Origin: Candidatus Omnitrophota bacterium
GTDB lineage: Bacteria; Omnitrophota; Gorgyraeia; 2-01-FULL-45-10
Length of the DNA stretch: 64,000 nt
Assembly (NCBI GenBank): GCA_903843285.1
Contig: CAIMPC010000057.1
Location: 6,456-70,455 of the forward strand
Direction: 5' to 3'
The notes beneath the pieces are model-generated. The model saw only the letters and a list, made by a program, of their open reading frames with translations, was not told where the DNA came from and did no database searches. A program made the position numbers and the translations under genes. Shown here in pieces: positions 43,570 through 59,940 of this stretch (its first letter is position 1; every line of letters starts with the position of its first letter).

Positions 43570-45825
43570 TCATACAGAATCTGCCGCCCAGTGAGGAATC
43601 TTGATTATAAAAGAGGCGCCCTTATTTTTGCCGTCGCTTTTCGCTTCGATAGATCCTCCATGCCTTTTCATTATACTATAACTTATGGATAACCCAAGGC
43701 CGACGCCCTGGCCGGGTTCTCGGGTAGTAAAAAACGGATCAAATACACGAAGGACACTATCCTCTCCTATGCCTATGCCCGTATCCTTAAATTCGATCAG
43801 CGTGAAATCGCCTTCCGACCAAGTCCTTACGATGAGCTCCCCTCCGTCCGGCATGGCGTTCTGCGCGTTAGCGATGACATTTATAAATACCTGCATCATC
43901 TGATCCGTATCAATACTTACATTGCGCGAATTCTTTTCATATCTTTTAATGACTTTAATATTTTGAGCAATTGTCCGATATTCAACAAGCGCTAAGGCAT
44001 CATCTAAGAGACCGTCTATGTCGTGCTCCTGTCTATGGAGCTCTTTGGCCCTGGCGAAATTCAGAAGATTACTTATAATAACTTTGCATCGTTCGGCATT
44101 TTTTAAAACTATCTTTAGATCATGCGCTATTTTTTCCGGGGCAATTCTTTGATTCTTTAAATCCTGCAGCGTTGCCTCTGTAAAACCCACTATTCCGGCT
44201 AAGGGGTTATTAATCTCATGCGCCGCCCCGGCGCTAAGTTGGCCCAGAGATGCCAGTTTACTTGTCTGGAATAGCTGCTCCTGAGTCTCTTTCAGCATCT
44301 CATCCGCCTTCTTGCTCTCGGTGGTGTCGGTGAAAAATCCCACAAGGCACTTACGGCCGTCTAGTATTACCGGAGCAGCGCTGACGTTAGCGTAAAATAA
44401 AGCGCCATCTTTGCGCAAACACGGAAGGTAAAACGCTAACTTCTTTTCACCGCGCAACTGGGCCTCGAACTCTGCCCACGCCGTGCCTAAGAACTCCTTT
44501 GGATGAATATCCTCTACCCCTAAGCGTATTAATTCTTCTTCCGTGTATCCAAACATTCTGCACGCAGACGGGTTGACATAGCGGAATTGCCTCGTCTCAG
44601 AATCGGTCGCGACTATTCCCTCTGCGGCGCTGGCAAAAAGCGCCTTGTATTTGGTTTCTGATTCCCGCAGCGCCTCCTGCGCCTTCTTGCGCTCAGCAAT
44701 CTCTGTAATAAGGCTTTCGATGGAGGTAGTTGACTCCTTTAAATGTTGCGTCATTGTGTCGAATGCACGCGAGAGCTGTCCCGCCTCATCTTTTGTGCCG
44801 ATGTCCACCTTATGGTCTAAATTGCCGGTGCCAACTATTTCTATACCTTTGCGCAAGCGTCTAAGCGGTGCGGTGATTAGCCTGGCGATGAATATGCCTA
44901 ATAGCCAGCCGGCGATGGGCACGATAAATAAAATCATAAGAAAAACCATACTTACCTTAGCTAAAGGCGCAAATATCTCTTTCGCATCTATCTCGGCTAA
45001 GACCGTCCACTGCGTCTGGGGAATGCATTCATTTGCCCCCAGAACCTGCACGCCGCGATAATCCAGATAAAGACCCACCACTCCATTGTGCTCTCTGCCC
45101 TTATACAGCCTGTCTTGCCTTACATTCTCTGTTTCTATCTTTCGATTTAGGGCCGCGCCTTTTTCAAATTTGGACGGAGTGATCATGCATCCACGCTCAT
45201 TAACAATATAAATCTTGCCGGTCTTGCCCATACCGACTTCACTTGTGGTAATATTATTCAAATCCGTTAATCTCACTCTTGCCGTAAGCACGCCCAATAA
45301 TTCACCCGTCTGGCTTTCTAATATTGGCGCGGATACGGCCATTAAAGACTCTTTACGTTCTTCGGAATAATAGAGATCCTTGATGAAGACACCTTTTTGG
45401 GCGCCGAGAAAAATAGAATCCACGGATTTATCTAATCCGATACTGCTTTCGTTGCTTGCGGCTACTACCAAGCCCTTTTTATCCATAAGCAGAAATTCCG
45501 CTATCGCTGGGTTGGCCTCTTCAATCCTCCCAAGCCTTTTCATCGCCAACTTAAAGGCCTCATTGCGCTCAGGGCTTTCTTTATCGCTTATTTTTAGAGA
45601 ATCCTCCAAAATGCCGCTTTTTGATAATTGCTCCACATAAACGACCAGCATTTTAAGGTAGGTTTCGATGTGATCACATCGTGAACTAAGCACGCCGGAT
45701 AGATTAGTATATATAGACTTCTGCAGATTATTTTTCAAGGTTAAATAAAAGACGCTTCCCGCGATACTCATGAGAATTAGACTAACGATCAGAAATGAGA
45801 GGCTTATTTTATTTACAATCTTCAT
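43570..45825 (-). CDS. Membrane sensor histidine kinase (periplasmic Cache-like sensor, HAMP, PAS, HisKA, HATPase_c).
   Basis: Two TM segments flank an about 250-aa extracytoplasmic domain. HAMP (GNLDHKVDIGTKDEAGQLSRAFDTM). H-box GAAHEINNPL. G-boxes DTGIGI and GVGLGL. Confidence 0.85.
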   Translation of the reverse strand: MKIVNKISLSFLIVSLILMSIAGSVFYLTLKNNLQKSIYTNLSGVLSSRCDHIETYLKMLVVYVEQLSKSGILEDSLKISDKESPERNEAFKLAMKRLGRIEEANPAIAEFLLMDKKGLVVAASNESSIGLDKSVDSIFLGAQKGVFIKDLYYSEERKESLMAVSAPILESQTGELLGVLTARVRLTDLNNITTSEVGMGKTGKIYIVNERGCMITPSKFEKGAALNRKIETENVRQDRLYKGREHNGVVGLYLDYRGVQVLGANECIPQTQWTVLAEIDAKEIFAPLAKVSMVFLMILFIVPIAGWLLGIFIARLITAPLRRLRKGIEIVGTGNLDHKVDIGTKDEAGQLSRAFDTMTQHLKESTTSIESLITEIAERKKAQEALRESETKYKALFASAAEGIVATDSETRQFRYVNPSACRMFGYTEEELIRLGVEDIHPKEFLGTAWAEFEAQLRGEKKLAFYLPCLRKDGALFYANVSAAPVILDGRKCLVGFFTDTTESKKADEMLKETQEQLFQTSKLASLGQLSAGAAHEINNPLAGIVGFTEATLQDLKNQRIAPEKIAHDLKIVLKNAERCKVIISNLLNFARAKELHRQEHDIDGLLDDALALVEYRTIAQNIKVIKRYEKNSRNVSIDTDQMMQVFINVIANAQNAMPDGGELIVRTWSEGDFTLIEFKDTGIGIGEDSVLRVFDPFFTTREPGQGVGLGLSISYSIMKRHGGSIEAKSDGKNKGASFIIKIPHWAADSV

Positions 45826-45999: not shown

Positions 46000-46305
46000 T
46001 TATTTCGCCTTTATCTTCGCTTCCAGATGATCTAATCTCTTTTTCAGCAGCACATTCTCTTTTGCTATCTCATTGTCCTTTGCTTTTGAAGACAGGTAGG
46101 AATCCTGCTGCCACCAATTTATCCCCATCTCCATTGCCTTATCAACTGAGGCGACCAATAACCTTATCTTAATATTGAGAAGATCAATATCGGCAATCTG
46201 GATCTTTATGTCCCCGGCGATCACGATCCCTTTATCTAATACCCGCTCTAAAATATCCGCCAGATTTGTAGCATCGTTGGCATGTATCATCTTTGTGTTA
46301 GGCAT
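46000..46305 (-). CDS. gvpJ: Gas vesicle protein GvpJ-like (GvpA-family core with a C-terminal extension).
   Basis: LADILERVLDKGIVIAGDIKIQIADIDLLNIKIRLLVASVDKAMEMG matches the GvpA/J hydrophobic core. Confidence 0.75.
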   Translation of the reverse strand: MPNTKMIHANDATNLADILERVLDKGIVIAGDIKIQIADIDLLNIKIRLLVASVDKAMEMGINWWQQDSYLSSKAKDNEIAKENVLLKKRLDHLEAKIKAK

Positions 46306-46325
46306 AACACATTCTCCTTTTCTGT

Positions 46326-46607
46326 TTATGCTAGCTTTTTCACTTTTATAATTATATCCGCCGCCCTCTTGCGTAAGCTCGCTATATACCGGCAGTTTTC
46401 ACAATCAATGTTTGCGCTCTTATAGTCCTGGCAGGCAAGCAGTACATCCGCCTCTTTCCGCAGCTCTTCGGCAAATACCGCTTTTCCCACCACTCCCTCG
46501 ATCGCATTGATCTTATTCGTGATATCTTTTATCACCGCCTCCTGCTTTTGAAATATAGCACAGTTTACCTTAGCGCCGTCTTCACGATCCATATTTTCTC
46601 CTCTCAC
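46326..46607 (-). CDS. Small hypothetical protein in the gvp cluster (93 aa, Cys-containing).
   Basis: Tightly packed between gvpJ and gvpK. No recognised motif. Confidence 0.45.
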   Translation of the reverse strand: MRGENMDREDGAKVNCAIFQKQEAVIKDITNKINAIEGVVGKAVFAEELRKEADVLLACQDYKSANIDCENCRYIASLRKRAADIIIKVKKLA

Positions 46608-46939
46608 ATTAAATCTCCTAAGGGCCCTAAATTAATGTTCAATTCCTCATCCTTAAGCCCGAAGATCTCTTTCAAATCCTTCATTTTGTTCTCTAACTTC
46701 ATCAATGTTTCACCGATCCGCTCGACCTCCTCGTCGGTAAGAGAACCCGCCTCTACCCTTCTCATCGCCTGTTTTTCCATTAACTTCCGAATCAGTTCTA
46801 TGAGAGTAAGAACCAGCTTCGCCAATCCCTTCTCCACGTTTTCAGGATTTGCCTCGATCTTTTTAGGCAGCGCATCCTTAACTTTTTCCATCTCGCCGGC
46901 AAAAATCTCGAGAGAATCCGTCTCGATTGTTTTACTCAT
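46604..46939 (-). CDS. gvpK: Gas vesicle protein GvpK.
   Basis: GLAKLVLTLIELIRKLMEKQAMRRVEAGSLTDEEVERIGETL...LNINLGPLGDL matches the GvpK consensus. Confidence 0.8.
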   Translation of the reverse strand: MSKTIETDSLEIFAGEMEKVKDALPKKIEANPENVEKGLAKLVLTLIELIRKLMEKQAMRRVEAGSLTDEEVERIGETLMKLENKMKDLKEIFGLKDEELNINLGPLGDLM

Positions 46940-47739
46940 AGCTGCCTACCATCCTTTTCTTCCGGATATTTGTGTTGCAATATAGTTTCGATCAAATCAG
47001 GCCCGCCAAACTTCCTATCCCCGGAATGACTTAACGTGATAAAATTATACGCCGGCCACGGGCCGCTGAGCATATACTTAAGATCTCCTCCGGAAGAGCG
47101 CAATTCCTCGAACGCTTCCATAAAGTCATCTTTCTTTTTCCTGTCCACCAGATAGGCGGCGCTTAGGAGCAGATTGTCGGTCTTTAATTTTTCGAGTTTT
47201 TTTTCGGAGACGTACCTGTTCAAAAACTCATCTACGATAGAGATGCATCTATCCGCCTCTTCTTCGAACTCTTTGTCTATCTTGTACTTTTCGAACTTCT
47301 CTTTCATGAATTTAGCTCCTGACTGCACGGCGTTCACCGGAGCGCTTTCGTCCTTATGGGCACTTGCTATTCTATCTTTTATGACATTGCCCGCCCAAAT
47401 AACCTTTATGCCGAATTCGCACTTACCGTACACCCGGTCTAAGTTCTCTGTAAAATCCTCATAATGATCTTTCACCCTTAAAAGCATCTCTTCTTTTCCT
47501 GCAAAAACCGTATATAGTCTCATCGGCAGAACGGTGAATCTGTCCATCAGCGCTTCCACGATTTCCTCGTGCTTTAAAACAGACTCTTCGGTTTTGATTT
47601 GGACCTGGGGATCGAGATTACTCACCACTATTCCGATATCGCGATAAGGGATACTATAAATAGGGGCCTCGCATAGTCCCTTATTGGATTCGTCCATCTC
47701 CTTATTAGAATCGATTATGGCATAGACATATAATCTCAT
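46936..47739 (-). CDS. Gas vesicle protein GvpF/GvpL family (paralog 1).
   Basis: YVYAII...GIVVSNL...VLPMRL... and C-terminal SGPWPAYNF. Confidence 0.75.
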   Translation of the reverse strand: MRLYVYAIIDSNKEMDESNKGLCEAPIYSIPYRDIGIVVSNLDPQVQIKTEESVLKHEEIVEALMDRFTVLPMRLYTVFAGKEEMLLRVKDHYEDFTENLDRVYGKCEFGIKVIWAGNVIKDRIASAHKDESAPVNAVQSGAKFMKEKFEKYKIDKEFEEEADRCISIVDEFLNRYVSEKKLEKLKTDNLLLSAAYLVDRKKKDDFMEAFEELRSSGGDLKYMLSGPWPAYNFITLSHSGDRKFGGPDLIETILQHKYPEEKDGRQL

Positions 47740-47742
47740 CTT

Positions 47743-48036
47743 TTACGTCGGCTCCTCGGTTGCGCCAGGCATAGGAGCTCCTCTTAAGTGCTCCATCGTC
47801 TCTACTGAGCTCAAGAGAACCCTTAATCCTAAATATACAAGATCCACATCAGCTACGGAAATAACTATATCTCCGGATATGACTACGCCCTTTGTCAGAG
47901 CCCTATCCAGGATCTCTAAAAGCGTGACCCTTTCCTTCTTACGAAGATCTAAATAGCTTTTCTTATCCTGCGTGGTTTTTATCGGATTATCCATCGTGCA
48001 TCCTTTTATTGTAGGGCAGGCTTTAACTTGTCCCAC
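47743..48036 (-). CDS. GvpA/GvpJ/GvpM-family small hydrophobic gas vesicle protein.
   Basis: LLEILDRALTKGVVISGDIVISVADVDLVYLGLRVLLSSVETME. Confidence 0.7.
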   Translation of the reverse strand: MGQVKACPTIKGCTMDNPIKTTQDKKSYLDLRKKERVTLLEILDRALTKGVVISGDIVISVADVDLVYLGLRVLLSSVETMEHLRGAPMPGATEEPT

Positions 48037-48115
48037 TATCTAATAACCCGAACTGTAGCGCACATTTAAAGATGCGCCACTTCTCACTACATTGAGAGTT
48101 TACAAAAAAAGAAGG

Positions 48116-48919
48116 TTAAATCTGACTTACCTGCTTACAGAAATTATAAGGCGGCCAGGGGCCCGTGCAGTCAAATATCAGCCCCTTATCCGCATATTTA
48201 GCCTTGAGACATGATATAACATTTTCAAACTCTTTGATCCGCTTGCTGCTTATCAAAAACGCGGCGTTTAACACCATATCCTCTTTCTTTTCCGTTACCT
48301 CTTTAGGTAATATATTATTAATCTTAGCATTCACAGCGACTATTTTTAATCTTTCAAAACAGTCCTTTGTGTATTCAGAGATCTTTTCGTTAATGATATC
48401 TTTTACTATCTCTTCCTTTTTCTTCTTTAAAAAGAATGCCTTGCCCGGGCCGGCGGCGAGAATTTCTTTGTCTTGCGCTATGATCCGTTCGTTCTTTGAG
48501 CAAAGGGTATCTTTAAAATATTCACTGCTACAGTATATCTTAAGGCCCCGCTCCTCTTTACCCTCCAGAAAATCCAGCACAGTCTTAAACTCGAGATTAT
48601 TTGCTTTAAGCAATTTTTCTACATTCGCTTTGCACTCAAAAACCGTACCGAATTTAAAAGGCAGCACGGTTTGCTCTTTCATGATCTTCTCTATCACCTT
48701 CTCGTGAAGCCGGATATTTCTCTCCACCCAACTCATGTCGGTCAGATGCCTTTTTAGATTTATCTCACTAAAGTCTTCGGGCGAGACGCTGCTGATAACC
48801 GCGTAAGTCCCCTGAAAATAAACAAGCTCGACCTTAACCCCTAAATCCGCAAAATCATAAGATGGAAGACTATCCTTTGTAACACAGTACAAATAGAGGA
48901 GCTCTTTCACCGCGATCAT
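48116..48919 (-). CDS. Gas vesicle protein GvpF/GvpL family (paralog 2).
   Basis: LYLYCV... and C-terminal TGPWPPYNF. Confidence 0.75.
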   Translation of the reverse strand: MIAVKELLYLYCVTKDSLPSYDFADLGVKVELVYFQGTYAVISSVSPEDFSEINLKRHLTDMSWVERNIRLHEKVIEKIMKEQTVLPFKFGTVFECKANVEKLLKANNLEFKTVLDFLEGKEERGLKIYCSSEYFKDTLCSKNERIIAQDKEILAAGPGKAFFLKKKKEEIVKDIINEKISEYTKDCFERLKIVAVNAKINNILPKEVTEKKEDMVLNAAFLISSKRIKEFENVISCLKAKYADKGLIFDCTGPWPPYNFCKQVSQI

Positions 48920-49179
48920 TCTCCCGGGCTAAGAGTCCCTTTGCGCTCGTAGGATTCTACCTCCAGGTCACCGCTTAGTTTAAGGGCGTATATATTCCTG
49001 TCCTGCACTTTCGTAGAAAGCCCGAGAGACTTGATAAATGAACTCGCTTCAAAAACCTCTGCTTCACATTCCCACCCATCGCCAACCTTTGAGACCTTGA
49101 TCACTGTTACGTCCTTGACGCTGAGGGTCTTCCTTAAAAAATCTATAACCTCTTTTTTCGCACCTTCTATATTGGCCAT
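48916..49179 (-). CDS. Small hypothetical protein in the gvp cluster (87 aa).
   Basis: Translationally coupled (4-nt overlap) with the downstream GvpF/L gene. Family not recognised. Confidence 0.45.
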   Translation of the reverse strand: MANIEGAKKEVIDFLRKTLSVKDVTVIKVSKVGDGWECEAEVFEASSFIKSLGLSTKVQDRNIYALKLSGDLEVESYERKGTLSPGE

Positions 49180-49181
49180 TT

Positions 49182-49424
49182 CTATTCTCCCTCTTCCTCT
49201 TTTGCTTTTCTGATAGCGTCCAATCGCGCCAAAAGTTCCGCTTCCTGTTTATTAAACTCTTGCTCATTGATCTTATCCAGCTCAAATCGCATCTGTAGTT
49301 CCATAAGTTTCTCTTTTATGAGCCCTTCATCAGAAAATTCCTTTTCCACCACATTATCGATCTTTTTAGCCAGCCAAATTATGCCATTTAATGGCGCGAG
49401 TAATATATCATCCAGTAAAAACAT
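49182..49424 (-). CDS. gvpG: Gas vesicle protein GvpG.
   Basis: MFLLDDILLAPLNGIIWLAKKI...LMELQMRFELDKINEQEFNKQEAELLARL matches the GvpG consensus. Confidence 0.75.
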   Translation of the reverse strand: MFLLDDILLAPLNGIIWLAKKIDNVVEKEFSDEGLIKEKLMELQMRFELDKINEQEFNKQEAELLARLDAIRKAKEEEGE

Positions 49425-49425
49425 T

Positions 49426-50196
49426 TTAGTATCCCATCGTTTCGATCACGAGGTTCACAAAATTAAAGGGAGGCAGTGTTCCCACATATTTAAATTTTAT
49501 CTTGTCATCATATTTATCCGCGAGGATCTGAACATTCCGGTCAAATTCCGTTTCATTCGCATTCTCTACCAGAAATGCGGCGCTTATGATCATCAGCTCA
49601 CCATAAGGATTGTTGACCTTCGTATCTTTCGCCAAAGGCGATAGCGTCTCTAAAATCTCCTTCTTGTACATATCCTTCTGTTCCTGCAGGGCGGCTTCGA
49701 CTTTCCTGCCGGCCTCCATACGCAGATAGTAGGTCTTTGCCGGCGGCTCGGATGACAACGCTTTTTTAATTTTCTTAATATCTTCGTAATTCTCCGCTAT
49801 CTCTTTATATATTACGTCTTCCTTGAATATAGCGCGTAAACCCAGTTCTTTTTTACCTTCTATATTTTTTAGCATGCCGGTAAATTTATCATGCTCTTTT
49901 TCCAATATCTTTTTTACTTTATTTTCATCCTGGGCAATGGTGCAAAATCGTACCGGCAAAACCGTATATTTTTTCATTATCTCCTCTATCGCCTTCTCAT
50001 GGGCAAGCATATTCTCTCTCGAGACTGCATAGCTTATTATCGGAGAATTACTGACTACGGCCGCGATATCCTTATAAAGGATGGAATGCAGTTCATCACC
50101 TCGTCCGCCAATCCCGAGAGCTCCAAAGGATTCGGCCTCTTTTGACGCGATAATACAATATATATACTTACCTTCTTTTCCTGCAGTATCCTTCAT
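49426..50196 (-). CDS. Gas vesicle protein GvpF/GvpL family (paralog 3).
   Basis: KYIYCIIAS...AAVVSNS...VLPVRF... and GTLPPFNFVNLVI. Confidence 0.75.
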   Translation of the reverse strand: MKDTAGKEGKYIYCIIASKEAESFGALGIGGRGDELHSILYKDIAAVVSNSPIISYAVSRENMLAHEKAIEEIMKKYTVLPVRFCTIAQDENKVKKILEKEHDKFTGMLKNIEGKKELGLRAIFKEDVIYKEIAENYEDIKKIKKALSSEPPAKTYYLRMEAGRKVEAALQEQKDMYKKEILETLSPLAKDTKVNNPYGELMIISAAFLVENANETEFDRNVQILADKYDDKIKFKYVGTLPPFNFVNLVIETMGY

Positions 50197-50970
50197 CTAC
50201 TTCTCCCACTCCTCAGGATATATAACGATATTGACGAAGTTAAATACGGGTAAAGGTCCCGTATACATAAATTTCACTCTTCTCCCATGCTGTTCGCCCA
50301 GATCGCACATTATATTATCAAACTCTTTCTCCCTGCCTTTATCCACCAAAAACGCGGCGTTCATGAACATCTCATCGCCCACAGTCTTATTGAGCTTATG
50401 ATCAAAGGCTGTCCTCCTCAGCGCTTCTACAATGCCTTCAGCCTCTTTATCTTTCTTCTTTTCCAGAGCCCTCTCCACCATCTTACCTATTTCATTTTTG
50501 GCCTGAATATTTTTTTTACTATTATCTTTCAGAAGCTTCTTTTTTAACAGCTCAATCGCTTTATTCTCATCTACAATTTCTTTGAATATAGCGGGCATAT
50601 TATTCCATATGCCTTTAACACCCAATTCTACTTTATGATCCACGTCACGTAACGCACTCTTAAACTCTCTGTATCTTTTGCTTAGGAGATTTCTTATTTC
50701 ATCGGCGTTTGACGCGATAGTCCCGAACCTTACCGGAAGCACACCGTCAAACTCCTTCATCACTGCCTCGATCACCCGTTCATGTGTAAGCATATTCTCT
50801 GAGTTAACGGTTAATTTAGATAGAGGGTGACTGCTCACGACCATGCTTATGTCGTCATAGCCTATGGTTGAGACATCGTCACCTCTTTCACCTATTCCTA
50901 TAGGCCCGAAACTTCTCTCCTGCGACGAAGCTATAACGCAATATATATACCGTCCTTCCTTCTGTATCAT
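50197..50970 (-). CDS. Gas vesicle protein GvpF/GvpL family (paralog 4).
   Basis: RYIYCVIAS...SMVVSSH...LPVRFGTI... and TGPLPVFNFVNIVI. Confidence 0.75.
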   Translation of the reverse strand: MIQKEGRYIYCVIASSQERSFGPIGIGERGDDVSTIGYDDISMVVSSHPLSKLTVNSENMLTHERVIEAVMKEFDGVLPVRFGTIASNADEIRNLLSKRYREFKSALRDVDHKVELGVKGIWNNMPAIFKEIVDENKAIELLKKKLLKDNSKKNIQAKNEIGKMVERALEKKKDKEAEGIVEALRRTAFDHKLNKTVGDEMFMNAAFLVDKGREKEFDNIMCDLGEQHGRRVKFMYTGPLPVFNFVNIVIYPEEWEK

Positions 50971-52019
50971 TCTCTTACCCTCACCAATATAGGATCGTTA
51001 TTTTGACCTGCCTGCCCGACTGATAATGCTGCATCGGTCAGGCGGGCCTGGTTAAGAGCCGTGCAGTATTCTGTAAGTATTCTGTATGCCCTGTTCACCT
51101 CATCAAATTCTTTTCCGGCGCTGAATGAACCCGGGTTTCTGTCCGGGTGAGTGAAAACCGCCTGCCTCTGATAGGCTTTTTTGACCTCGTCCTTGCTTGT
51201 AATATCGCTTAAGATCCCCAGCCTTTTCTTCGCCCAACCTATATCTTCATTACTTATACTATTCGTCTCGAGGGTATAAAAGCTATAAGGCGGAAGAGGG
51301 CCGATGCACCTGAAATTCAGTCGTTCATTGAATTTGATATTTAGCTCTTCCACCTTCATATCAAAGTCTTTATGCTTAGCTTTATCAATTAGAAAAGCTA
51401 TATTAATTACCATCTTATCATCCATGGGCTCATGTACTTTTAAGGCCTGGCTTACGCTTTTAAGGGTATCTTGTATCTGCTTAGAATACAACTCCCTATC
51501 TCTATCCAACGCGTCTTTGACCATAAGCCCAATCTTCATCTGGTCATCCACGGTTACGCCTCCGGGTGAGGATAAAAGCCGATCCTTAAATTCCCGGATC
51601 TCCTTGCTTTCCCCTATTCCTTTAATGATCGAATAGAAGTCACCCCAAATGGCCGTTACGTCAATCTCGATCCTGTCAGATATTTTAGTGAAGACATCTT
51701 TAATTACAGTATAACCGCATGCCAATATATGTTTAACCTCATCCTCATCTTTGGCAAAGATCCCCAACCTCATAGGAATGATTGTATGGTTCAAACTCAT
51801 GATCTTTTCGATAGCCTTTTGATGTCTCACTAAAAACATAGCTAAAACGTCTTTGCGCATCCGCGTATAATCAACTATTTCAGAATCGCTCACTACAGCC
51901 GAAATATCCCGATAAGAAACGGTATAGACCTCTTCGCAGTCAGTAACCCCGTAAGAGCCAAAGAATACCTCTTTATCAGAATTTAAAACTCCGTAAATAT
52001 ATTTACCGCTATATTTCAT
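50967..52019 (-). CDS. GvpF/GvpL-family domain fused to a C-terminal DnaJ J domain (paralog 5).
   Basis: The N-terminal about 265 aa is GvpF/L-like (KYIYGVL..., IGPLPPYSF). The C-terminus WAKKRLGILSDITSKDEVKKAYQRQAVFTHPDRNPGSFSAGKEFDEVNRAYRILTE has J-domain helices II/III and the HPD motif. Confidence 0.7.
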   Translation of the reverse strand: MKYSGKYIYGVLNSDKEVFFGSYGVTDCEEVYTVSYRDISAVVSDSEIVDYTRMRKDVLAMFLVRHQKAIEKIMSLNHTIIPMRLGIFAKDEDEVKHILACGYTVIKDVFTKISDRIEIDVTAIWGDFYSIIKGIGESKEIREFKDRLLSSPGGVTVDDQMKIGLMVKDALDRDRELYSKQIQDTLKSVSQALKVHEPMDDKMVINIAFLIDKAKHKDFDMKVEELNIKFNERLNFRCIGPLPPYSFYTLETNSISNEDIGWAKKRLGILSDITSKDEVKKAYQRQAVFTHPDRNPGSFSAGKEFDEVNRAYRILTEYCTALNQARLTDAALSVGQAGQNNDPILVRVRE

Positions 52020-52171
52020 GATACCTGTCTTTCAATGCGTGATTCAATTTCACTCGACATCCATAAAAGGCCTAAGCTATTTTTATTCCGGAGTTTTCGT
52101 CTTTTTCCTTAGTACGCCGACTAATAATTTCTTAAAACTGTCCACCAAACCCTTGATTAGGCTTGCCATGC

Positions 52172-54349
52172 TTAAGCCTCCCTTTTCTTTATTATCTTCA
52201 CGGCTTCATCGAAGAATTTTTTCTTTATGGTAAAAGTTTTTAACTTCTCTTCGCTGATCTTGCCTTTTTCTTTTTCCAGAAAATCCCTCATCGAAAGGAT
52301 CGAAGCGCTCCTTACTACCGATTCTATATCCGCGCCGGTAAAATTATCCGCTTCAATCGCTAATTTTTTAAGATCAACGTCGCTGTCCAGAGGCTTTTCT
52401 TTTGTGTGTATTTTATAGATCTCCAGCCTTGTTTTCTCGTCGGGAAGAGGAAGCTCTAAAAGCAGATCGAATCTTCCCGGCCGCAATACTGCTTTGTCAA
52501 CAAGATCCACTCTATTGGTAGCCCCAAGGATAAGCACTCCTTTTAGCTCTTCTATTCCATCCATTTCGGTCAGGAACTGACTGATAACCCGTTCGGATAC
52601 ATGGGAAGCATCTCCGCCGCTTCTGAGAGGGACTATGGAATCCATCTCATCAAAAAATAATATGCAGGGCGATGCCTGTTTTGCTTTACGAAATATCTCG
52701 CGGATTCCTTTTTCGCTCTCGCCAACGTATTTAGACACCAGCTGAGGCCCTTTAATAGAGATGAAGTTAACCCCGCTCTCGCTGGCCACTGCCTTAGCCA
52801 ATAACGTCTTTCCCGTGCCCGGGGGGCCATAAAGCAGGATCCCTTTAGGCGGGTTAGTGTCGGCTTTCTTAAAAAGTTCGGCATATTTTAGCGGCCATTC
52901 CACGGTCTCCATCAGCCGCTTTTTTATATCTTCCAGGCCTCCTACGTCGCTCCATTTGACATCCGGCACCTCCACAAAAACCTCTCTGATCGCCGATGGC
53001 TCAATCTCTTTCATCGCTTCTAAAAAATTATTCATGCCCACTTCCAGCTTCATCAGTGTCTCGTAGGGGATCTCCGCCATTTCAAAATCTATCTTGGGCA
53101 GGATCTTTCTTAAGGCTGACATAGCCGCTTCCCGCGCCAAGGCCTCCAGATCCGCGCCTACGTATCCATGTGTAATCTCAGCCAGTTTCTCAATGCTTAC
53201 GTCTTCCGCTAACGGCATGCCCCGCGTGTGAATCTGGAGTATCTCCAATCTTCCGTTTTTATCGGGGATAGGAATGGACATTTCCCTGTCAAATCGGCCC
53301 GGACGCCTCAGAGCGGGGTCTATTAAGTTAGGTACGTTTGTCGCCGCCATAACAATAACCTGTCCTCTGGATTCCAATCCATCCATCAAAGACAGGAGCT
53401 GAGCTACCACTCTGCGCTCAACCTGTTTCTCCGCGCCCATATCCTCTCTTTTTGGAGCGATGGATTCAATTTCATCTATAAAGATTATTGCCGGGGCATG
53501 AGCCTTAGCGTCTTCAAATAGCGAGCGAAGCCGCTGTTCCGCCTCACCGTAAAATTTCCCCATGCACTCGGGTCCGCTCATACTGATAAAATATGCGTCG
53601 GTCTCATTGGCTACCGCGCGGGCGATTAATGTCTTTCCGCAACCCGGAGGCCCGTAAAAAAACACTCCCTTAGGCGGCTGGATTCCCAGCCTCTCAAATA
53701 CTTCAGGAAATCTTAATGGAAGTTCAACCATTTCTCTGATCCTTTGGATCTGAGTGCCCAGCCCGCCAATATCTTCGTAGGAAATTTTGGCATGTTTACC
53801 TTCCGCCGCTTCTTTATCGTCCGATGCTCTCCCTTTCGTCTCCATCCTTATCAGAGTAGAAGAACCTATTATAACTACTCCGCCGGGGATGGTATCCTCT
53901 ACTTTAAAATCGCACGCCTTGGTCCCGAAGAGAGTAGCCCTGATTTTATCGCCTTTCATAACCGGCAGTCCTGCGACAAGTGACCCGATATACTTAGTAT
54001 CTTGATCTCCCCGCAGCGCAGTGGATGCTGTCAGAGAAGAGAGCGTAATCTTATTGGCAGGCTTAGAATCAACCTTGCGGATCTTCACCTTATCATCCAA
54101 TCCGATATCCGCGTTATCCCTGGCTATCCCATCTATCTGAATGATCTTTTTCCCTCGCTCATCAGCATAACAGGGCATCAGTTTCGCCGCGGTCTTCCTC
54201 TTCCCTTCAATCTCAACGATCTCCCCGACTTCCAGCCCTAAGATTTTTAAATCCTCCGGGTCGATCCGGGCGATTACCCTGCCGACATCTTTTGGCAGAG
54301 CTTCTTTTACTTTCAGAGTCAAGCCCTTATCGTCTTTTTTCGTCGTCAT
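52172..54349 (-). CDS. CDC48/VCP-like AAA+ ATPase (N domain plus two AAA+ modules) embedded in the gvp cluster.
   Basis: Two Walker A motifs GPPGCGKTL and GPPGTGKTL. Walker B DEID/DEMD. SRH regions. An N-terminal double-psi-barrel-like segment. Confidence 0.85.
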
Positions 54350-55284
54350 TGGAATAACCTCCCGGTATATTTATCTAACGCCTCAATGCCTCTAATCTCA
54401 CTGGCTTGTAATGGCAAAATAGTAGTCTTTAAACCGCTAAATTTTCTTCGTATCTGTTTTATATGTTCTTCCTGGGCATCACTTCTTTCCCGGCAAAACT
54501 GACAATCTCTCGACTCTAAACAATTATTCACCAATAACTGTTTTACTCTTATGCCATACCCGTTTAAATCATTTACCAATCTCTCTGTTTCTAAAATTGC
54601 CATATCTTCAGGGATAGTAACTGCCACAAACTCACATCTTTTCCGATCCTTAAGCAGGTCCTCTATCTTTTTCACTGTCTTCTTCATCTCCATCAGAAAA
54701 TCATCGCCTTCGTCAGGATTATACTTGCCGGAAAAACTTTCTACCATGTATCTGTATTTCCATCGCATCTTCGCTAAAACCTTGATCCACTCATCCAAAA
54801 GCTGCGGCAGAGTCAAAAGTCTTAATGCGTGGCCTGTAGGCGCCGTATCCACAATATATTTATCAAATTTTGCCTCATCTATTAAATCTACAATGGTCTT
54901 AAAACCCATAACCTCATCTATGCCAGGGATAGGTAAAGCGAACATAGAATCAACATCTTCCTGGTCTAGATAAGTAGAGGTGTCAAAAATCTTTTTTATT
55001 TGACCCTCGTATTTTATCTTAAATTGTGAAAGAGCTTTTTTTGCGTTTACTTCCAGGGCGCTTAAATTTTTTACCCCTTTTATTTCTCTTATCTCATCTC
55101 CTACTCTTTGGCCTAAGCTATCTGAAACTGAATGCGCCGGATCGGTGGAGATAACTAATGTCTTAAAACCGTTCTTAGCCAAATAAAGACCCGCGCTCGA
55201 GGCGCAGGTCGTCTTTCCCACTCCGCCCTTTCCGCCAAATAATATTAATTTCAACGCGGCTTCTTTTAATCCTGTTAATGCCAT
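54346..55284 (-). CDS. ArsA/Get3-family P-loop ATPase.
   Basis: Deviant Walker [11 protein letters not shown]. ArsA signature [13 protein letters not shown]-terminal CxxC ([10 protein letters not shown]). Confidence 0.8.
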
Positions 55285-55287
55285 CCA

Positions 55288-55857
55288 CTACTTCTTTATC
55301 TTGATCTCTAGCATACCATTGGTATAGGCTGAAGTCATGTTTTCCGTTTTTAACTTCATGGGGAGCAATACCTCTTTATGGTATTTTCTATCGCCGCTGT
55401 GGGCGGATATATCCAGGATGTCTTCTTTTAAATCTAATTTTATATCCTCCTGACTTACCCCCGGCATCTCAGCGTAGATCTTAACATCTTCTTTTTCATC
55501 AAAGAGATCGGTAATAGGCTCTCTCTCCTCATCAATTTTAGGGCCTTTAGGGGTCTTCTTTATGTTGCCGAACGGCTCTACAATGGGCTTGCCGCCTACC
55601 GCGCTCTTTACAGAAAAACCAAACACGCCTTTCATCCCTTTTTTAAGATGACTTAGATCTATTTCGCCTTCTTGTTTGATTTCACCACCCGATTCTTTTA
55701 GCTTTGTAGCGAAGTCGACCAGTTTCTCTATGCCGCTAAATAGCCCTCCTAAACCTATTTTACCCATGCCAAAATCAATATCTAGACCCTCTTTTTTCTT
55801 CTCTCCATCACCATTCGGGCCTCTATTCGATTGTTTCTTATATTTCTCCATTTTCAT
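55288..55857 (-). CDS. Hsp20/alpha-crystallin-domain small heat-shock protein (GvpH-like position in the cluster).
   Basis: ACD C-terminus ...KYHKEVLLPMKLKTENMTSAYTNGMLEIKIKK (A-x-x-x-NG-x-L-x-I). Gly-rich N-terminus. Confidence 0.7.
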   Translation of the reverse strand: MKMEKYKKQSNRGPNGDGEKKKEGLDIDFGMGKIGLGGLFSGIEKLVDFATKLKESGGEIKQEGEIDLSHLKKGMKGVFGFSVKSAVGGKPIVEPFGNIKKTPKGPKIDEEREPITDLFDEKEDVKIYAEMPGVSQEDIKLDLKEDILDISAHSGDRKYHKEVLLPMKLKTENMTSAYTNGMLEIKIKK

Positions 55858-55877
55858 TCCCCCCTTTTATTATACGC

Positions 55878-56258
55878 TTATTTCTTTGGTACAACGCCCT
55901 TCCCTCTACAGGTCAAGCAGGGGAGGTCCGATCCCTTTTCTCTACCTCTGCATTTACATGTCAAACAGGGTTCGGTATCTTCACTGTTTACACTTATCAC
56001 GCCTTTTCCTTTGCAGACAATACACGCAAGAGCCCTATTCGAGAGCGAACGACCTTCCCCGTTGCAATAAGCGCAAATAACCGCCGGCGATGAAACCCTT
56101 ACATTTCCGGCGCCTGAACAGGCAGAACATTGTGTGCTTTTTTTAGAGGGTATAAGCCCCATCCCTTTACAAAATGCACATCTATAGCTCGTCCTATAAA
56201 GAACTTCTCCTCTTTGACCTACTTTCTGGCTTTTCCAATCAAATGTCTTCCAAATCAT
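55878..56258 (-). CDS. DnaJ-type CxxCxGxG zinc-finger (CR-domain-like) protein.
   Basis: At least five CxxC units: CAFCKGMG, CSACSGAG, CAYCNGEG, CIVCKGKG, CLTCKCRG and CLTCRGKG. Confidence 0.65.
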   Translation of the reverse strand: MIWKTFDWKSQKVGQRGEVLYRTSYRCAFCKGMGLIPSKKSTQCSACSGAGNVRVSSPAVICAYCNGEGRSLSNRALACIVCKGKGVISVNSEDTEPCLTCKCRGREKGSDLPCLTCRGKGVVPKK

Positions 56259-56271
56259 TAAAAAATACCCA

Positions 56272-56577
56272 TCAGTACTGCACAGATAGTTTTTTCATGG
56301 GTTTTGAGGGGACTCTTTTACAAGTCTTGACAGTCTGATCCTCACGCACTTCAAATTGCAATTTTTCAATCCGCCTGCATACGGAATATAAAAGTTTTTG
56401 TGCGGTGGTAATCCTTTTGTTCAATACATAGATCTCTTTCTCGAGCCTATCCTTTTCTCTCCCGCTCACATACAATTCCAGGTAAGCGGATCTTTGCGCT
56501 TTGGGCACAGAACTGCCCCCTATAGAATGTATGCTCTTAATATCCCTAACGCTTATTACCCGCTGTATCCCTTTCAT
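56272..56577 (-). CDS. Hypothetical coiled-coil protein (101 aa) in the gvp cluster.
   Basis: Tight spacing between gvpN and the Zn-finger gene. No recognised motif. Confidence 0.45.
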   Translation of the reverse strand: MKGIQRVISVRDIKSIHSIGGSSVPKAQRSAYLELYVSGREKDRLEKEIYVLNKRITTAQKLLYSVCRRIEKLQFEVREDQTVKTCKRVPSKPMKKLSVQY

Positions 56578-56610
56578 ACGGCCTATCTCCCTTCATATCC
56601 GGGAATCTCT

Positions 56611-57678
56611 TTAAACAGCAACAGCTTCTTTTTTTAACTTCTTACTTGCGCCTACAGTCTTTTTGCCGGCGCGTATAGTCTTCTTATTAACTCTACCGGT
56701 TTCTCCATCAGATCCGGAGGCCTTTTTGGCAATACTGATAGTTTTGCCGGAGCTGACTTCTTTTTTAACTAGCTCTTTCACTATCTCTTTCACCCTATCC
56801 TGATTAGTCTTTGAACCGACTCTGCTTGTCTCAGAAGCCAATATGTCCTGACACATCTGCGTAAAAGCCCCATCGGAGCTTTTTATAGGGGTAACGCCCT
56901 GAACTTTAAGGGTCTTGGCGATCATAATACAGCCGCGGACGGTGGGAGCAAATTCACATTTTCCTGACTCTCTTAAACCCCTCACAATATTGACGATCGC
57001 CCCGGAGTGTTGCCTCGAAAGCTTGGACTTTGCCTGAGTGATAGCCACCTCTGTCTCATAGTCAAAGTAGTCCAGGTCCATGGTGATCATTCTGTCCCTT
57101 AATGCGTCCTGGCTCCTGTGAACGCCGGCATACTCTTCGGGATTAGATGTAAATATAGCGTTAAAGTTCGGATCAACCTTTAAATAAGGCTCTTCTCCGC
57201 CTCTGCCCACAGGCAAATCCATCATCTTCTCCTGTAGGATAGAAAGAAGTATGTTATTCGCCTCAGGCCGGGAACGGGTGAACTCATCATAAATCAATGT
57301 GAATCCGTACTTACAAGCGACGGTCAGTCGATTATCCACCCAGTGCTTTACCATATCTTCTTCAGTCTTTAAGACCCTGGAGATAAACCGGTCCACAACC
57401 TTCTTTATCCTGTAACCGTATTCGCCTCCCACCAGATCGGAGGTGGTGAACTCTTCGTCTCCGTGGATCATAACCACAGGCCTTCCGAGCTTACTTGCTA
57501 TATGCATAGCCAGTGTTGTTTTACCGGAGCCGGATATCCCTCTAAAATGGACAGGGAAACCCGCCTTTATATAGGCAAGTGCCCTGACTGTGATATCCTT
57601 TATATAGCCAGTATCCACGAAGTCCGGTAAAGGACTGGGGTCTAATACTGTGGTCATTTCATCAATCATTTTTTTCAT
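56611..57678 (-). CDS. gvpN: Gas vesicle AAA+ ATPase GvpN (CbbQ/NirQ/GvpN family) with a Lys-rich C-terminal tail.
   Basis: GISGSGKTTLAMHIASKLGRPVVMIHGDEEF.... Walker B LIYDEF. C-terminal KKTIRAGKKTVGASKKLKKEA. Confidence 0.85.
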   Translation of the reverse strand: MKKMIDEMTTVLDPSPLPDFVDTGYIKDITVRALAYIKAGFPVHFRGISGSGKTTLAMHIASKLGRPVVMIHGDEEFTTSDLVGGEYGYRIKKVVDRFISRVLKTEEDMVKHWVDNRLTVACKYGFTLIYDEFTRSRPEANNILLSILQEKMMDLPVGRGGEEPYLKVDPNFNAIFTSNPEEYAGVHRSQDALRDRMITMDLDYFDYETEVAITQAKSKLSRQHSGAIVNIVRGLRESGKCEFAPTVRGCIMIAKTLKVQGVTPIKSSDGAFTQMCQDILASETSRVGSKTNQDRVKEIVKELVKKEVSSGKTISIAKKASGSDGETGRVNKKTIRAGKKTVGASKKLKKEAVAV

Positions 57679-58009
57679 CCCTCTTCCTGGATGTTAATGT
57701 TTTATTCATTGCACTCCAGAGCCTATTTGCTTCAACTAAATCGGCACGGATACCCTTTTCCTTCTTCCTGAAATCATCCCTTAAAGAAGAGACCTTTTTG
57801 ATCAGTTCAATTCTATCTTCGCAAAGTCCCGTCTTTAAGGATTTGGTCATCTCCTTATGAACTTTTCTACAGTGGTCCACAAACTTCCTGGCATTGTCCC
57901 TAATGGTTTCTGCCTGCTGCCTTAAATCCTCCATACTTTTCTTTCTATCCTCACGAGCCGTGGTAATGTTGTCACAAAGAGACTTCATACCACTCGATAT
58001 ATTGCTCAT
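57662..58009 (-). CDS. Small coiled-coil protein (115 aa) sharing an N-terminal motif with the two GvpC-like proteins upstream.
   Basis: The N-terminal MKSLCDNITTAREDRKKSMEDLRQQAETIRDNARKFV motif parallels the MKSITENIISSYDARVKGLTDL...ILGNARSAVKGF motif of 58025..58804. Confidence 0.5.
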   Translation of the reverse strand: MSNISSGMKSLCDNITTAREDRKKSMEDLRQQAETIRDNARKFVDHCRKVHKEMTKSLKTGLCEDRIELIKKVSSLRDDFRKKEKGIRADLVEANRLWSAMNKTLTSRKRDEKND

Positions 58010-58024
58010 ACTTGATCTCCTTTA

Positions 58025-58804: not shown

Positions 58805-58876
58805 TTTGATACCCTCCTTTTTTATCCTTCGACGCGCTTCGCTTTCTCAGGATTAATCCTGAGTTTGTCGAAGGGT

Positions 58877-59662: not shown

Positions 59663-59724
59663 GCTTTCTCCTGTTTTTACAGGATGAGGATGGCCGGGCA
59701 AGAACCCCTCTTCAACCTTATCCT

Positions 59725-59940
59725 TTAGGCTGCTGTTGCTGTTAAACCAATAGCCTCAGCATACTTCAGATAAGTCTCGACTGACGCCACTACAACTCTG
59801 GCTTCAACCGCGAGGATCTCTATACCAACTAGAGACACCCTTACCCAAGCATCAACCACCACGCCCTTATCCAGTATACGGTCAATAACTTCGACCAAGC
59901 TGGACGAACCAATCGTTTTCTCGACTGCCATGTGAATCAC
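59725..59940 (-). CDS. gvpA: Major gas vesicle structural protein GvpA.
   Basis: [54 protein letters not shown] is the canonical GvpA sequence. GGAGG Shine-Dalgarno upstream. Confidence 0.95.

What the first reader, a model, noticed from the sequence alone, without database searches (positions are those of the whole stretch)
50967..52019. GvpF/L-family protein fused to a DnaJ J domain
The C-terminal 70 aa carry the J-domain hallmarks. These are helix II, the invariant HPD tripeptide (FTHPDRN) and helix III (EFDEVNRAYRILTE). They are appended to a complete GvpF/L fold. A J domain recruits and activates Hsp70, so this fusion would target DnaK activity to nascent gas-vesicle assembly sites. I am not aware of this architecture in characterised gvp systems.
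Basis: partly seen in the sequence, partly recalled or inferred. Interest (0 to 1): 0.7.

Follow-up and report, generated by a model that had tools for sequence, protein, structure and literature searches.

The report
Gas-vesicle GvpF fused to J domain
A gas-vesicle assembly protein (GvpF) carries an intact Hsp70-recruiting J domain at its C-terminus; this is one member of a large fusion family found in many bacterial phyla that I found described in no paper, and it always sits next to a Cdc48-like unfoldase, pointing to a chaperone system dedicated to building or recycling gas vesicles.

Summary
The ORF at 50967-52019 (minus strand, 350 aa) has a full GvpL/GvpF domain (Pfam E=2e-55; Foldseek TM 0.83 to Anabaena GvpF). 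This is followed by a J domain above Pfam's cut-off (45 bits; 1.4 A rmsd to the E. coli DnaJ J domain bound to DnaK).

HPD is kept in 118/118 close homologues, 115/115 Chloroflexota homologues and 129/136 representatives of 50%-identity clusters, down to 28% identity.

The fusion is not a rarity. More than 1,000 database proteins have it, from MAGs and genomes labelled Omnitrophota, Planctomycetota, Bacteroidota, Chloroflexota (Oscillochloris, Ca. Chloroploca) and others. The fusions form one clade within the GvpF paralogues.

A Cdc48-family AAA+ gene lies upstream in 52/55 loci. Most loci also carry a Get3/ArsA ATPase, an Hsp20 and a DnaJ-type zinc-finger protein. No Hsp70 gene lies nearby.

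Best reading: a class-C J-domain co-chaperone that brings the host DnaK to GvpA-family clients or to the gas-vesicle nucleation complex. This is inferred, not shown.

Databases already auto-annotate both domains. No paper I could search describes the fusion.

The parts
50967..52019 (-). gvpF-J gene: 350-aa GvpF/L-family protein with a C-terminal J domain. Its stop overlaps the start of the next gvpF paralogue by 4 nt (ATGA).
   Evidence: ORF list; Pfam; identical protein P0001 seen on 17 public contigs.
51276..52007 (-). GvpL/GvpF domain (residues 5-248)
   Evidence: PF06386 E=2.3e-55 over the full profile. Foldseek to Anabaena GvpF 6l5d_B gives E=4.9e-17 and TM 0.83; Microcystis GvpF 4qsg gives TM 0.77.
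51060..51251 (-). J domain (residues about 257-320): helix I 257-267, helix II 276-290, HPD loop, helix III 301-326
   Evidence: PF00226 at 45.2 bits against a cut-off of 27.8. PDB sequence hits to DnaJ J domains at about 1e-7. AF2 secondary structure. 1.4 A rmsd and 41% identity to 5nro_B.
51141..51149 (-). HPD tripeptide (H291-P292-D293)
   Evidence: Located at 51149. Invariant in alignment A1. 96-98% conserved in 136 cluster representatives.
50970..51059 (-). Conserved C-terminal tail (residues 321-350). It ends in the motif NxILV[KR]V[RK][ED], predicted as a beta-strand (344-348; pLDDT of the last 10 residues about 89).
   Evidence: Alignment A1; tails of 82 loci; AF2 model. Its function is unknown.
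52172..54349 (-). Cdc48-family double-ring AAA+ ATPase (725 aa), directly upstream of gvpF-J
   Evidence: Pfam CDC48_N, CDC48_2 and 2x AAA. TIGR01243 at 933.7 bits, above its cut-off of 802.65. Upstream on the same strand in 52/55 loci. Also adjacent in Chloroflexota and Bacteroidota.
54346..55284 (-). Get3/TRC40/ArsA-family ATPase (312 aa, single domain)
   Evidence: PF02374 E=1e-82. TIGR00345 at 285.9 bits against a cut-off of 135. Present in 33/37 loci with at least 7 kb upstream.
55288..55857 (-). Hsp20/alpha-crystallin small heat-shock protein
   Evidence: PF00011 and PF17886. Present in 36/37 loci.
55878..56258 (-). Stand-alone DnaJ-type zinc-finger protein (126 aa, six CxxCxGxG-like motifs)
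   Evidence: PF00684 at 41.6 bits against a cut-off of 32.7. Translation. Homologue in 26/37 loci. Not called as a gene in the public records of this contig.
56611..57678 (-). GvpN AAA+ ATPase
   Evidence: TIGR02640 at 336.8 bits against a cut-off of 266.8.
49426..50970 (-). Two further GvpF paralogues (50197-50970 and 49426-50196), immediately downstream. They lack a J domain.
   Evidence: PF06386 E=2e-62 and 2e-66. 30-35% identical to the fusion's GvpF domain. Present in 54/54 loci.
46000..49424 (-). Rest of the distal gvp block: GvpG, a GvpO-like protein, GvpF/L, GvpJ/M, GvpL/F, GvpK, an unknown ORF, and a GvpA/J-family protein
   Evidence: Pfam.
59725..59940 (-). gvpA (major shell protein), the first gvp gene of the cluster
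   Evidence: PF00741 E=3.9e-15.

Best explanation
The gene encodes a class-C (type III) J-domain co-chaperone whose client- or site-binding module is a GvpF fold. Shown: it is a complete GvpF domain joined to a sequence- and structure-canonical J domain, with HPD and the F47- and Y25-equivalent residues conserved. It is one orthologous lineage of GvpF, conserved across several phyla inside gvp clusters. It is almost always encoded directly after a Cdc48-like AAA+ ATPase, and usually with a Get3/ArsA ATPase, an Hsp20 and a DnaJ-type zinc-finger protein. Inferred: the GvpF part binds GvpA/J/M-family hydrophobic shell proteins or sits in the nucleation complex, as haloarchaeal GvpF binds GvpM. 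The J domain docks ATP-bound housekeeping DnaK and triggers its ATPase, so that DnaK clamps onto Gvp clients at that site. This would keep GvpA-type proteins soluble and hand them on for insertion into the growing shell. It may act together with the cluster's holdases and the Cdc48-like unfoldase.
For: Domain identity: Pfam hits for both domains are above their cut-offs. PDB sequence hits to DnaJ J domains. AF2 model with pLDDT 90.3. Foldseek gives GvpF 6l5d/4qsg at TM 0.77-0.83 and the DnaK-bound DnaJ J domain 5nro_B at 1.4 A. Selection on the J domain: HPD is present in 118/118, 129/136 and 115/115 sequences. In 136 representatives down to 28% identity, H/P/D are 96-98% conserved, F305 (equivalent to DnaJ F47) 86%, and A282/Y283 82/76%. 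The helix II consensus, EIKKAYRRLAKKYHPD, is canonical. Mean column conservation of the J domain (0.43-0.52) equals that of the GvpF domain (0.44). Breadth: all of the best 150 of 2,929 50%-cluster representatives align through the J domain. All 120 listed hits carry PF00226+PF06386 in the Chloroflexota and Bacteroidota searches, and 118 of 120 in the first search, where the other two are truncated. In 82/82 genome loci the J domain is on the same ORF. Single origin: in an NJ tree of GvpF domains only, the J-bearing proteins form one clade. Context: a conserved chaperone-rich gvp block. Literature: GvpF binds GvpM, and accessory Gvp proteins are proposed to keep GvpA soluble (PMC6107691). GvpA over-expression is proteotoxic (PMC12848028). 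Gas-vesicle collapse induces dnaK, a J-protein and clpB in Dolichospermum (bioRxiv 10.64898/2026.05.31.729101).
Against: No biochemical data exist. No Hsp70 or GrpE gene lies in the window or within 10 kb in any of the 86 loci held when the flanks were scanned, so the partner has to be a distant housekeeping DnaK that I could not verify in these genomes. The DnaJ K26-equivalent is Q284 in this protein, whereas R is commonest in the family. Canonical helix IV is not matched. The J domain appears tethered at both ends, because the C-terminal strand is predicted to pair back into a sheet; this could restrict docking. Seven of 136 representatives lack HPD. One has QPD and one has lost the motif; several of the others look frameshifted. 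The strict pairing with Cdc48 rather than with any Hsp70 gene leaves open a different partner or role.
Confidence: 0.6

Rival explanations
1. The parts are the same but the job differs. GvpF-J, DnaK and the adjacent Cdc48-like unfoldase would act mainly in quality control: extracting, disaggregating or recycling GvpA from mis-assembled or collapsed vesicles, like the DnaK/DnaJ-ClpB bi-chaperone, rather than in primary assembly.
For: A Cdc48-family gene lies upstream on the same strand in 52/55 loci (directly adjacent in 49). It is the only partner retained in the most distant (Chloroflexota) branch. [quoted passage not shown]
Against: The gene sits in the middle of the assembly genes and is translationally coupled to the next gvpF. 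GvpF/L proteins are assigned to early nucleation in the studied systems. Nothing here separates assembly from recycling.
Confidence: 0.2
2. The J domain does not work through Hsp70. Instead it contacts a cluster-encoded ATPase (the Cdc48-like N domain or the Get3/ArsA protein) as an adaptor.
For: Tight synteny with Cdc48 and ArsA, and no Hsp70 gene in any locus scanned.
Against: As far as I know, every characterised HPD-bearing J domain acts on an Hsp70 (general knowledge). The residues conserved here are exactly those of the Hsp70 interface: HPD, basic helix II and the F47 equivalent. Synteny is equally explained by a shared pathway.
Confidence: 0.08
3. The J domain is a structural remnant (a J-like domain) that only stabilises or oligomerises GvpF and has no co-chaperone activity.
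For: Helix IV is missing and both ends appear anchored to the GvpF body. A few lineages have lost HPD.
Against: J-like domains typically lose HPD. Here it is 96-98% conserved down to 28% overall identity, and the J domain is as conserved as the GvpF domain.
Confidence: 0.07
4. The fusion is an assembly or gene-calling artefact: two genes merged by a frameshift or a chimeric contig.
For: None found.
Against: The identical protein is on 17 independent contigs. The same single ORF is present in 82/82 species-level genome loci and in hundreds of database clusters from different sequencing projects.
Confidence: 0.01

Closest known systems
Cyanobacterial GvpF (PDB 4QSG Microcystis; 6L5D Anabaena) and haloarchaeal GvpF/GvpL
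   Same: Same two-lobed alpha+beta fold (TM 0.77-0.83), same Pfam family over the full length, and the same placement inside a gvp cluster. Haloarchaeal GvpF binds the GvpA-family protein GvpM.
   Different: The solved GvpF proteins are 242-244 aa with no extension. This protein has about 100 extra C-terminal residues forming a J domain plus a conserved tail. Sequence identity is only 22-24%. It scores below NCBIfam's GvpF and GvpL equivalog cut-offs.
Class C (type III) J-domain proteins with a dedicated client- or site-binding module, such as HscB (Fe-S scaffold IscU), auxilin (clathrin lattice) and Mycoplasma TopJ (terminal organelle assembly)
   Same: The logic is the same: a J domain joined to a module that recognises one structure or client, so that Hsp70 acts there. 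NCBIfam's TopJ model is hit through the J domain (E=2.8e-6). The analogy with HscB and auxilin is from my own knowledge.
   Different: The targeting module is a GvpF fold, which I did not find described for any J protein. The J domain is C-terminal and followed by a strand that seems to fold back. Hsp70 dependence is untested.
E. coli DnaJ (class A Hsp40), J domain as in PDB 5NRO/1XBL
   Same: 41% identity and 1.4-2.0 A rmsd over about 54 residues. HPD and the Y25, R27 and F47 equivalents are present.
   Different: There is no G/F region, no zinc-finger and no C-terminal substrate-binding domains in the same chain. A DnaJ-type zinc-finger domain is instead encoded as a separate 126-aa protein five genes upstream. 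The K26 equivalent is Q. Helix IV is not matched.
gvp clusters with ArsA and Hsp20 genes (Polaribacter irgensii, Pelodictyon luteolum, Geobacter uraniireducens; Castillo & Saier 2010, PMC2963123)
   Same: An ArsA homologue and an Hsp20 are embedded among gvpN/L/F/G/J/K/M, with four or five L/F paralogues, as here.
   Different: That paper describes two-domain (~600 aa) ArsA homologues and mentions neither a J domain nor Cdc48. Here ArsA is single-domain (312 aa). I could not check whether one of their L/F paralogues carries a J domain.
DnaK/DnaJ/GrpE-ClpB bi-chaperone disaggregase
   Same: A J protein paired with a double-ring AAA+ unfoldase. Chaperones of this system are induced by gas-vesicle collapse in Dolichospermum.
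   Different: The AAA+ partner here is Cdc48-family, not Hsp100/ClpB. No physical or functional coupling has been shown.

Membership tests
J-domain proteins (Pfam PF00226 DnaJ) | Profile match above the curated gathering score | tested here: met
   45.2 bits against a cut-off of 27.8, E=1e-11, residues 267-316.
J-domain proteins (Pfam PF00226 DnaJ) | HPD tripeptide in the loop between helices II and III, conserved in orthologues | tested here: met
   H291-P292-D293 lies between helix 276-290 and helix 301-326. Conserved in 118/118, 129/136 and 115/115 sequences.
J-domain proteins (Pfam PF00226 DnaJ) | Helical hairpin fold (helices I-III, plus IV) | tested here: inconclusive
   Helices I-III superpose on 5nro_B at 1.4 A over 54 columns. 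Helix IV is not matched by the profile (positions 55-63), and the model shows one long helix III instead.
J-domain proteins (Pfam PF00226 DnaJ) | HPD-dependent stimulation of Hsp70 ATPase | not testable with these tools
   Needs biochemistry. No Hsp70 gene is in the window or in the loci scanned.
Class A / class B Hsp40 (DnaJ, CbpA type) | N-terminal J domain followed by a G/F region, with (class A) or without (class B) a zinc finger, and C-terminal client-binding domains in one chain | tested here: not met
   The J domain is C-terminal. No G/F, zinc-finger or CTD Pfam hits occur in this protein. By exclusion it is class C.
GvpL/GvpF family (Pfam PF06386) | Full-length profile match and GvpF fold | tested here: met
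   Profile positions 1-244 of 245, E=2.3e-55. TM 0.83 to 6l5d_B.
GvpL/GvpF family (Pfam PF06386) | Encoded within a gas-vesicle gene cluster | tested here: met
   GvpA, GvpN, GvpG, GvpK, GvpJ/M and four further GvpF/L genes lie on the same strand at 46000-59940. The same holds in related loci.
GvpL/GvpF family (Pfam PF06386) | Binds GvpA/J/M-family proteins and is needed for vesicle formation | not testable with these tools
   Known only for haloarchaeal homologues (PMC6107691).
NCBIfam equivalogs GvpF (NF052351, cyanobacterial) and GvpL (NF045778) | Score above the equivalog cut-off | tested here: not met
   85.3 bits against 350, and 55.6 against 200. It is a separate orthologous lineage.

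The most novel reading that the evidence does not exclude
A large class of bacterial gas-vesicle clusters encodes its own organelle-dedicated proteostasis machine. In this reading GvpF-J marks Gvp clients or the vesicle shell and fires the cell's DnaK there. DnaK then cooperates with the always-adjacent bacterial Cdc48-like unfoldase, and with the Get3/ArsA-like ATPase, Hsp20 and DnaJ-type zinc-finger holdases. Together they would relay the extremely hydrophobic GvpA into the growing shell, or pull it back out of collapsed vesicles. That would be an Hsp70-Cdc48 (not Hsp100) bi-chaperone in bacteria and an Hsp70-to-Get3-like hand-off for a non-membrane client.
Probability: 0.3. Interest if true: 0.8.

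Novelty: new variant of a known kind. Interest (0 to 1): 0.6.

Why it matters
How gas vesicles are nucleated, and how the very hydrophobic GvpA is kept soluble and inserted, is still unresolved. The roles of the GvpF/L proteins are largely guesses.

A GvpF orthologue that carries a conserved, canonical J domain gives a concrete and testable link between vesicle biogenesis and Hsp70. It also identifies which GvpF paralogue is the likely client adaptor.

The conserved neighbours are a Cdc48-like AAA+, a Get3/ArsA ATPase, an Hsp20 and a DnaJ zinc-finger protein. Together they suggest a portable chaperone module.

This is practically relevant. Heterologous gas-vesicle expression, used for acoustic reporter genes, is limited by GvpA proteotoxicity (PMC12848028). 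Such a module, or simply J-domain tagging of GvpF, might relieve that.

It is also a rare case of a bacterial Cdc48 homologue with a clear genomic context.

Tried and rejected
- **Hsp70/GrpE search.** I looked for Hsp70 and GrpE motifs in all six frames of the window, and for Hsp70 motifs in the flanks of the loci held at the time. No Hsp70 motif was found. One loose GrpE-pattern match fell inside the giant ORF and I discount it. A cluster-encoded Hsp70 partner is therefore rejected.
- **Literature.** I searched these term combinations: GvpF + J domain; gas vesicle + J-domain, DnaJ, Cdc48, ArsA, Omnitrophota or Omnitrophica; and GvpF + Hsp20 + chaperone + gene cluster. No paper describes the fusion. 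The only relevant prior work is Castillo & Saier 2010 on ArsA and Hsp20 in gvp clusters. The library lacks most subscription journals, so absence is not proof.
- **NCBIfam.** There is no dedicated model. The fusion scores below the GvpF and GvpL equivalog cut-offs.
- **Names of distant representatives.** The listing of cluster members was nearly uninformative; one member is named 'DnaJ-domain-containing protein 1'. The two extra homology searches, with P0258 and P0280, gave the taxonomic anchors instead.
- **Artefact or chimera.** Rejected.
- **Multiple independent fusions.** Rejected provisionally by the NJ tree, which has no bootstrap.
- **Not possible here.** I could not read model coordinates, so the pairing partner of the C-terminal strand is unknown.
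- **Caveat on taxonomy.** Taxon labels of MAG records (for example Nitrospirota, Patescibacteria, Actinomycetota) are as deposited and some are probably wrong.
Full report
**What is there**

The interval 50967-52019 is one ATG-to-stop ORF of 350 aa on the minus strand. Pfam places a full-length GvpL/GvpF domain at residues 5-248 (profile positions 1-244 of 245, E=2.3e-55). It places a DnaJ J domain at residues 267-316 (E=1e-11, 45.2 bits against a gathering score of 27.8).

The C-terminal 98 residues alone hit solved J domains, including E. coli DnaJ (1bq0, 1xbl, 5nro_B), at E about 1e-7. An AlphaFold2 model built on 60 homologues has mean pLDDT 90.3 and pTM 0.84. Foldseek matches its body to the crystal structures of GvpF from Anabaena (6l5d_B, E=4.9e-17, TM 0.83) and Microcystis (4qsg, TM 0.77). 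It matches its C-terminal part to the DnaJ J domain bound to DnaK (5nro_B, 1.4 A over 54 columns, 41% identity).

The model's helices are I 257-267, II 276-290 and III 301-326, with HPD (291-293) in the II-III loop. Canonical helix IV is not matched. After a poorly predicted stretch (331-339) the chain ends in a confidently predicted beta-strand (344-348). DSSP assigns a strand only where a pairing partner exists, so the tail folds back onto a sheet and the J domain is probably held at both ends. I could not read the coordinates to see which strand it pairs with.

The minor correction is that the J domain is followed by a conserved 30-residue tail.

**Is the J domain maintained?**

Neither occurred.

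- A search of 5.8 billion proteins gave 1,150 hits. Of the 120 listed (52-100% identity), 118 carry both Pfam domains and the other two are truncated.
- HPD is present in 118/118 full-length sequences.
- A filter-free search of 1.84 billion 50%-identity representatives gave 2,929 hits. All of the best 150, down to 28% identity, align through the J domain.
- Of the 136 representatives at least 320 aa long, 129 keep HPD. Exceptions include one QPD and one outright loss; several others look frameshifted.
- In an alignment of those representatives H, P and D are 96-98% conserved. F305 (equivalent to DnaJ F47) is 86% conserved, A282/Y283 (A24/Y25) 82/76%, and K280 70%.
- The helix II consensus reads EIKKAYRRLAKKYHPD, which is canonical.
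- Mean column conservation of the J domain (0.43-0.52) equals that of the GvpF domain (0.44). Both halves are therefore under comparable constraint.
- In the window protein the K26 equivalent is Q284.

**Distribution and origin**

A scan of one genome per GTDB species found 161 relatives, of which 80 loci were kept. In all 82 loci that reach the J region, it lies in the same ORF as the GvpF domain and has HPD. These 82 are 78 of the scan loci plus four fetched earlier; two contigs end before the J region.

Record labels include Omnitrophota (the closest, which suggests the window is from that phylum), Planctomycetota (many Pirellulales and Phycisphaerae), Elusimicrobia, Ignavibacteria, Latescibacter, Desantisbacteria and others. 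Some MAG labels are probably unreliable.

Two further homology searches anchored distant branches. One is Chloroflexota, including Oscillochloris sp. ZM17-4 and Ca. Chloroploca asiatica, both gas-vacuolate phototrophs. The other is Bacteroidota, including Mangrovibacterium and Marinifilaceae, and one 7.6-Mb contig. All 240 listed hits in those searches carry both domains.

Source names such as 'GvpL/GvpF family gas vesicle protein', 'J domain-containing protein' and 'DnaJ-domain-containing protein 1' show that pipelines already see both domains.

The window has five GvpF/L paralogues, 23-43% identical to each other. A neighbour-joining tree of GvpF domains only, taken from ten loci, puts every J-bearing protein in one clade, including Chloroploca. 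That clade is sister to the two paralogues that follow it in the operon (no bootstrap). The fusion therefore most likely arose once and defines an orthologous GvpF lineage. NCBIfam has no model for it, and it scores below the GvpF and GvpL equivalog cut-offs.

**Context**

The gene lies in a 14-kb, single-strand gvp cluster (46000-59940). The gene order is:

- gvpA
- two or three unknown or coiled-coil genes
- gvpN
- an unknown 101-aa gene
- a 126-aa DnaJ-type zinc-finger protein with six CxxCxGxG-like motifs
- Hsp20
- a single-domain Get3/TRC40/ArsA ATPase
- a Cdc48-family double-ring AAA+
- gvpF-J
- gvpF
- gvpF
- gvpG
- a GvpO-like gene
- gvpF/L
- gvpJ/M
- gvpL/F
- gvpK
- an unknown gene
- a GvpA/J-family gene

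. The gvpF-J stop overlaps the next gvpF start (ATGA).

This block is conserved. Among 55 loci with at least 2.5 kb upstream, a Cdc48 homologue lies upstream on the same strand in 52, and directly adjacent in 49. Among 37 loci with at least 7 kb upstream, the counts are Cdc48 36, Hsp20 36, GvpN 36, the 101-aa protein 36, ArsA 33 and the zinc-finger protein 26. The two downstream gvpF paralogues are present in 54/54 loci.

The Bacteroidota locus has the order Hsp20-ArsA-Cdc48-GvpFJ-GvpF-GvpF-GvpG. In Chloroflexota, Pfam detects no ArsA, Hsp20 or zinc-finger protein among the called genes, but Cdc48-GvpFJ adjacency persists. Cdc48 is thus the most faithful partner.

No Hsp70-like ORF is present in the window or in the flanks of any of the 86 loci held when the flanks were scanned.

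**How it most likely works**

What is shown is the architecture, its conservation, its single origin and its neighbourhood.

What is inferred is this. The protein is a class-C J-domain co-chaperone whose targeting module is GvpF. Haloarchaeal GvpF binds the GvpA-family protein GvpM, and accessory Gvps have long been proposed to keep GvpA soluble (PMC6107691). Excess GvpA is proteotoxic in heterologous hosts (PMC12848028). A GvpF-tethered J domain would fire the housekeeping DnaK exactly where GvpA-type clients are bound, as HscB does for IscU or auxilin for clathrin (my own knowledge).

The neighbours add holdases (Hsp20, the zinc-finger protein), a Get3-like ATPase and a Cdc48-like unfoldase. 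In eukaryotes Get3 receives hydrophobic segments downstream of Hsp70 (my own knowledge).

The main alternative uses the same parts for a different job: quality control or recycling of mis-assembled or collapsed vesicles. [quoted passage not shown]

Less likely alternatives are a non-Hsp70 partner for the J domain, a vestigial J-like domain, or an artefact. The last is excluded.

I put 0.6 on the DnaK-recruiting assembly adaptor, 0.2 on the recycling version, and small values on the rest.

**Comparison with what is known**

As a GvpF, it meets the family and fold tests but is a lineage separate from the cyanobacterial GvpF and GvpL equivalogs. As a J protein, it meets the profile, HPD and helix I-III tests. 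Helix IV is unclear and ATPase stimulation is untestable here. It fails the class A and class B architecture, so it is class C.

ArsA and Hsp20 in gvp clusters were reported in 2010 (PMC2963123). That paper mentions neither a J domain nor Cdc48. Eight literature searches found no description of a GvpF-J fusion or of Hsp70 recruitment in gas-vesicle biogenesis. The library lacks many subscription journals.

**Verdict**

This is a real, strongly conserved and widespread feature. It is visible to annotation pipelines but, as far as I could find, undiscussed. I rate it a new variant of known kinds (J-domain co-chaperone; GvpF) with interest 0.6. It turns the question of how GvpA is chaperoned into the shell into experiments with clear controls (HPD mutants, a Cdc48 knockout). 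It is not a categorically new mechanism.

Noticed in passing
window 633-30692 (-): A single giant ORF of 10,019 aa fills almost half of the window. I did not analyse its domains.
   Followed up: no
window 60276-60291 (-), with 34909-36213, 36335-37726, 38363-40744 and 43570-45825: The only perfect sigma-54 -24/-12 consensus in the window (TGGCACacttgTTGCT) lies on the gvp strand, about 340 nt upstream of gvpA and just before a 63-codon ORF. Downstream of the cluster lie rpoN, an NtrC-type sigma-54 activator, two PAS/Cache histidine kinases and response regulators. A relative (L003) also has a sigma-54 activator and rpoN beside its gvp cluster. The cluster may be sigma-54 dependent.
   Followed up: partly
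window 55878-56258 (-): A 126-aa DnaJ-type zinc-finger ORF with six CxxCxGxG-like motifs is left uncalled in the public gene calls of this same contig, which show a 420-nt gap there. It has homologues in 26/37 related loci and is called in L003. It is probably a real, under-annotated gene. Together with the J domain on GvpF it looks like a DnaJ split over two proteins.
   Followed up: partly
window 50970-51059 (-); tails of L003-L084: The tail after the J domain is conserved across phyla: S-F-x-E-E-x-F-x-K-N-A-I-L-V-K-V-R-E, or ...AVLVTTMG in the Planctomycetota-labelled loci. It is predicted as a beta-strand that pairs back into the protein. A hydrophobic core flanked by basic residues also resembles a DnaK-binding peptide (my own knowledge). 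Its role is unexplained.
   Followed up: partly
window 52172-54349 (-): This is a bacterial Cdc48-family ATPase (TIGR01243, above its cut-off). Its C-terminus (...[10 protein letters not shown]) has no hydrophobic-Tyr-X motif of the kind used for proteasome docking, so it probably acts as a free unfoldase. A gvp-linked clade of bacterial Cdc48 would merit its own study.
   Followed up: partly
L004 12327-13373: In one relative, a volactin/MreB-like actin-fold protein (348 aa) and a 172-aa unknown are inserted between the gvpF paralogues, and the ArsA gene is missing.
   Followed up: no
window 56272-56577 (-), 48916-49179 (-), 46326-46607 (-), 58877-59701 (-): Several small or medium ORFs in the cluster have no significant Pfam or NCBIfam family; one has a sub-threshold GvpO hit. 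The 101-aa one is conserved in 36/37 loci. They are candidate new Gvp accessory proteins.
   Followed up: no
L085 (Oscillochloris sp. ZM17-4): In this locus the region after Cdc48-GvpFJ looks decayed: a 43-aa GvpL/F fragment, then gvpK, then unrelated genes. This possibly marks a degenerating gvp cluster that still keeps the Cdc48-GvpFJ pair.
   Followed up: no
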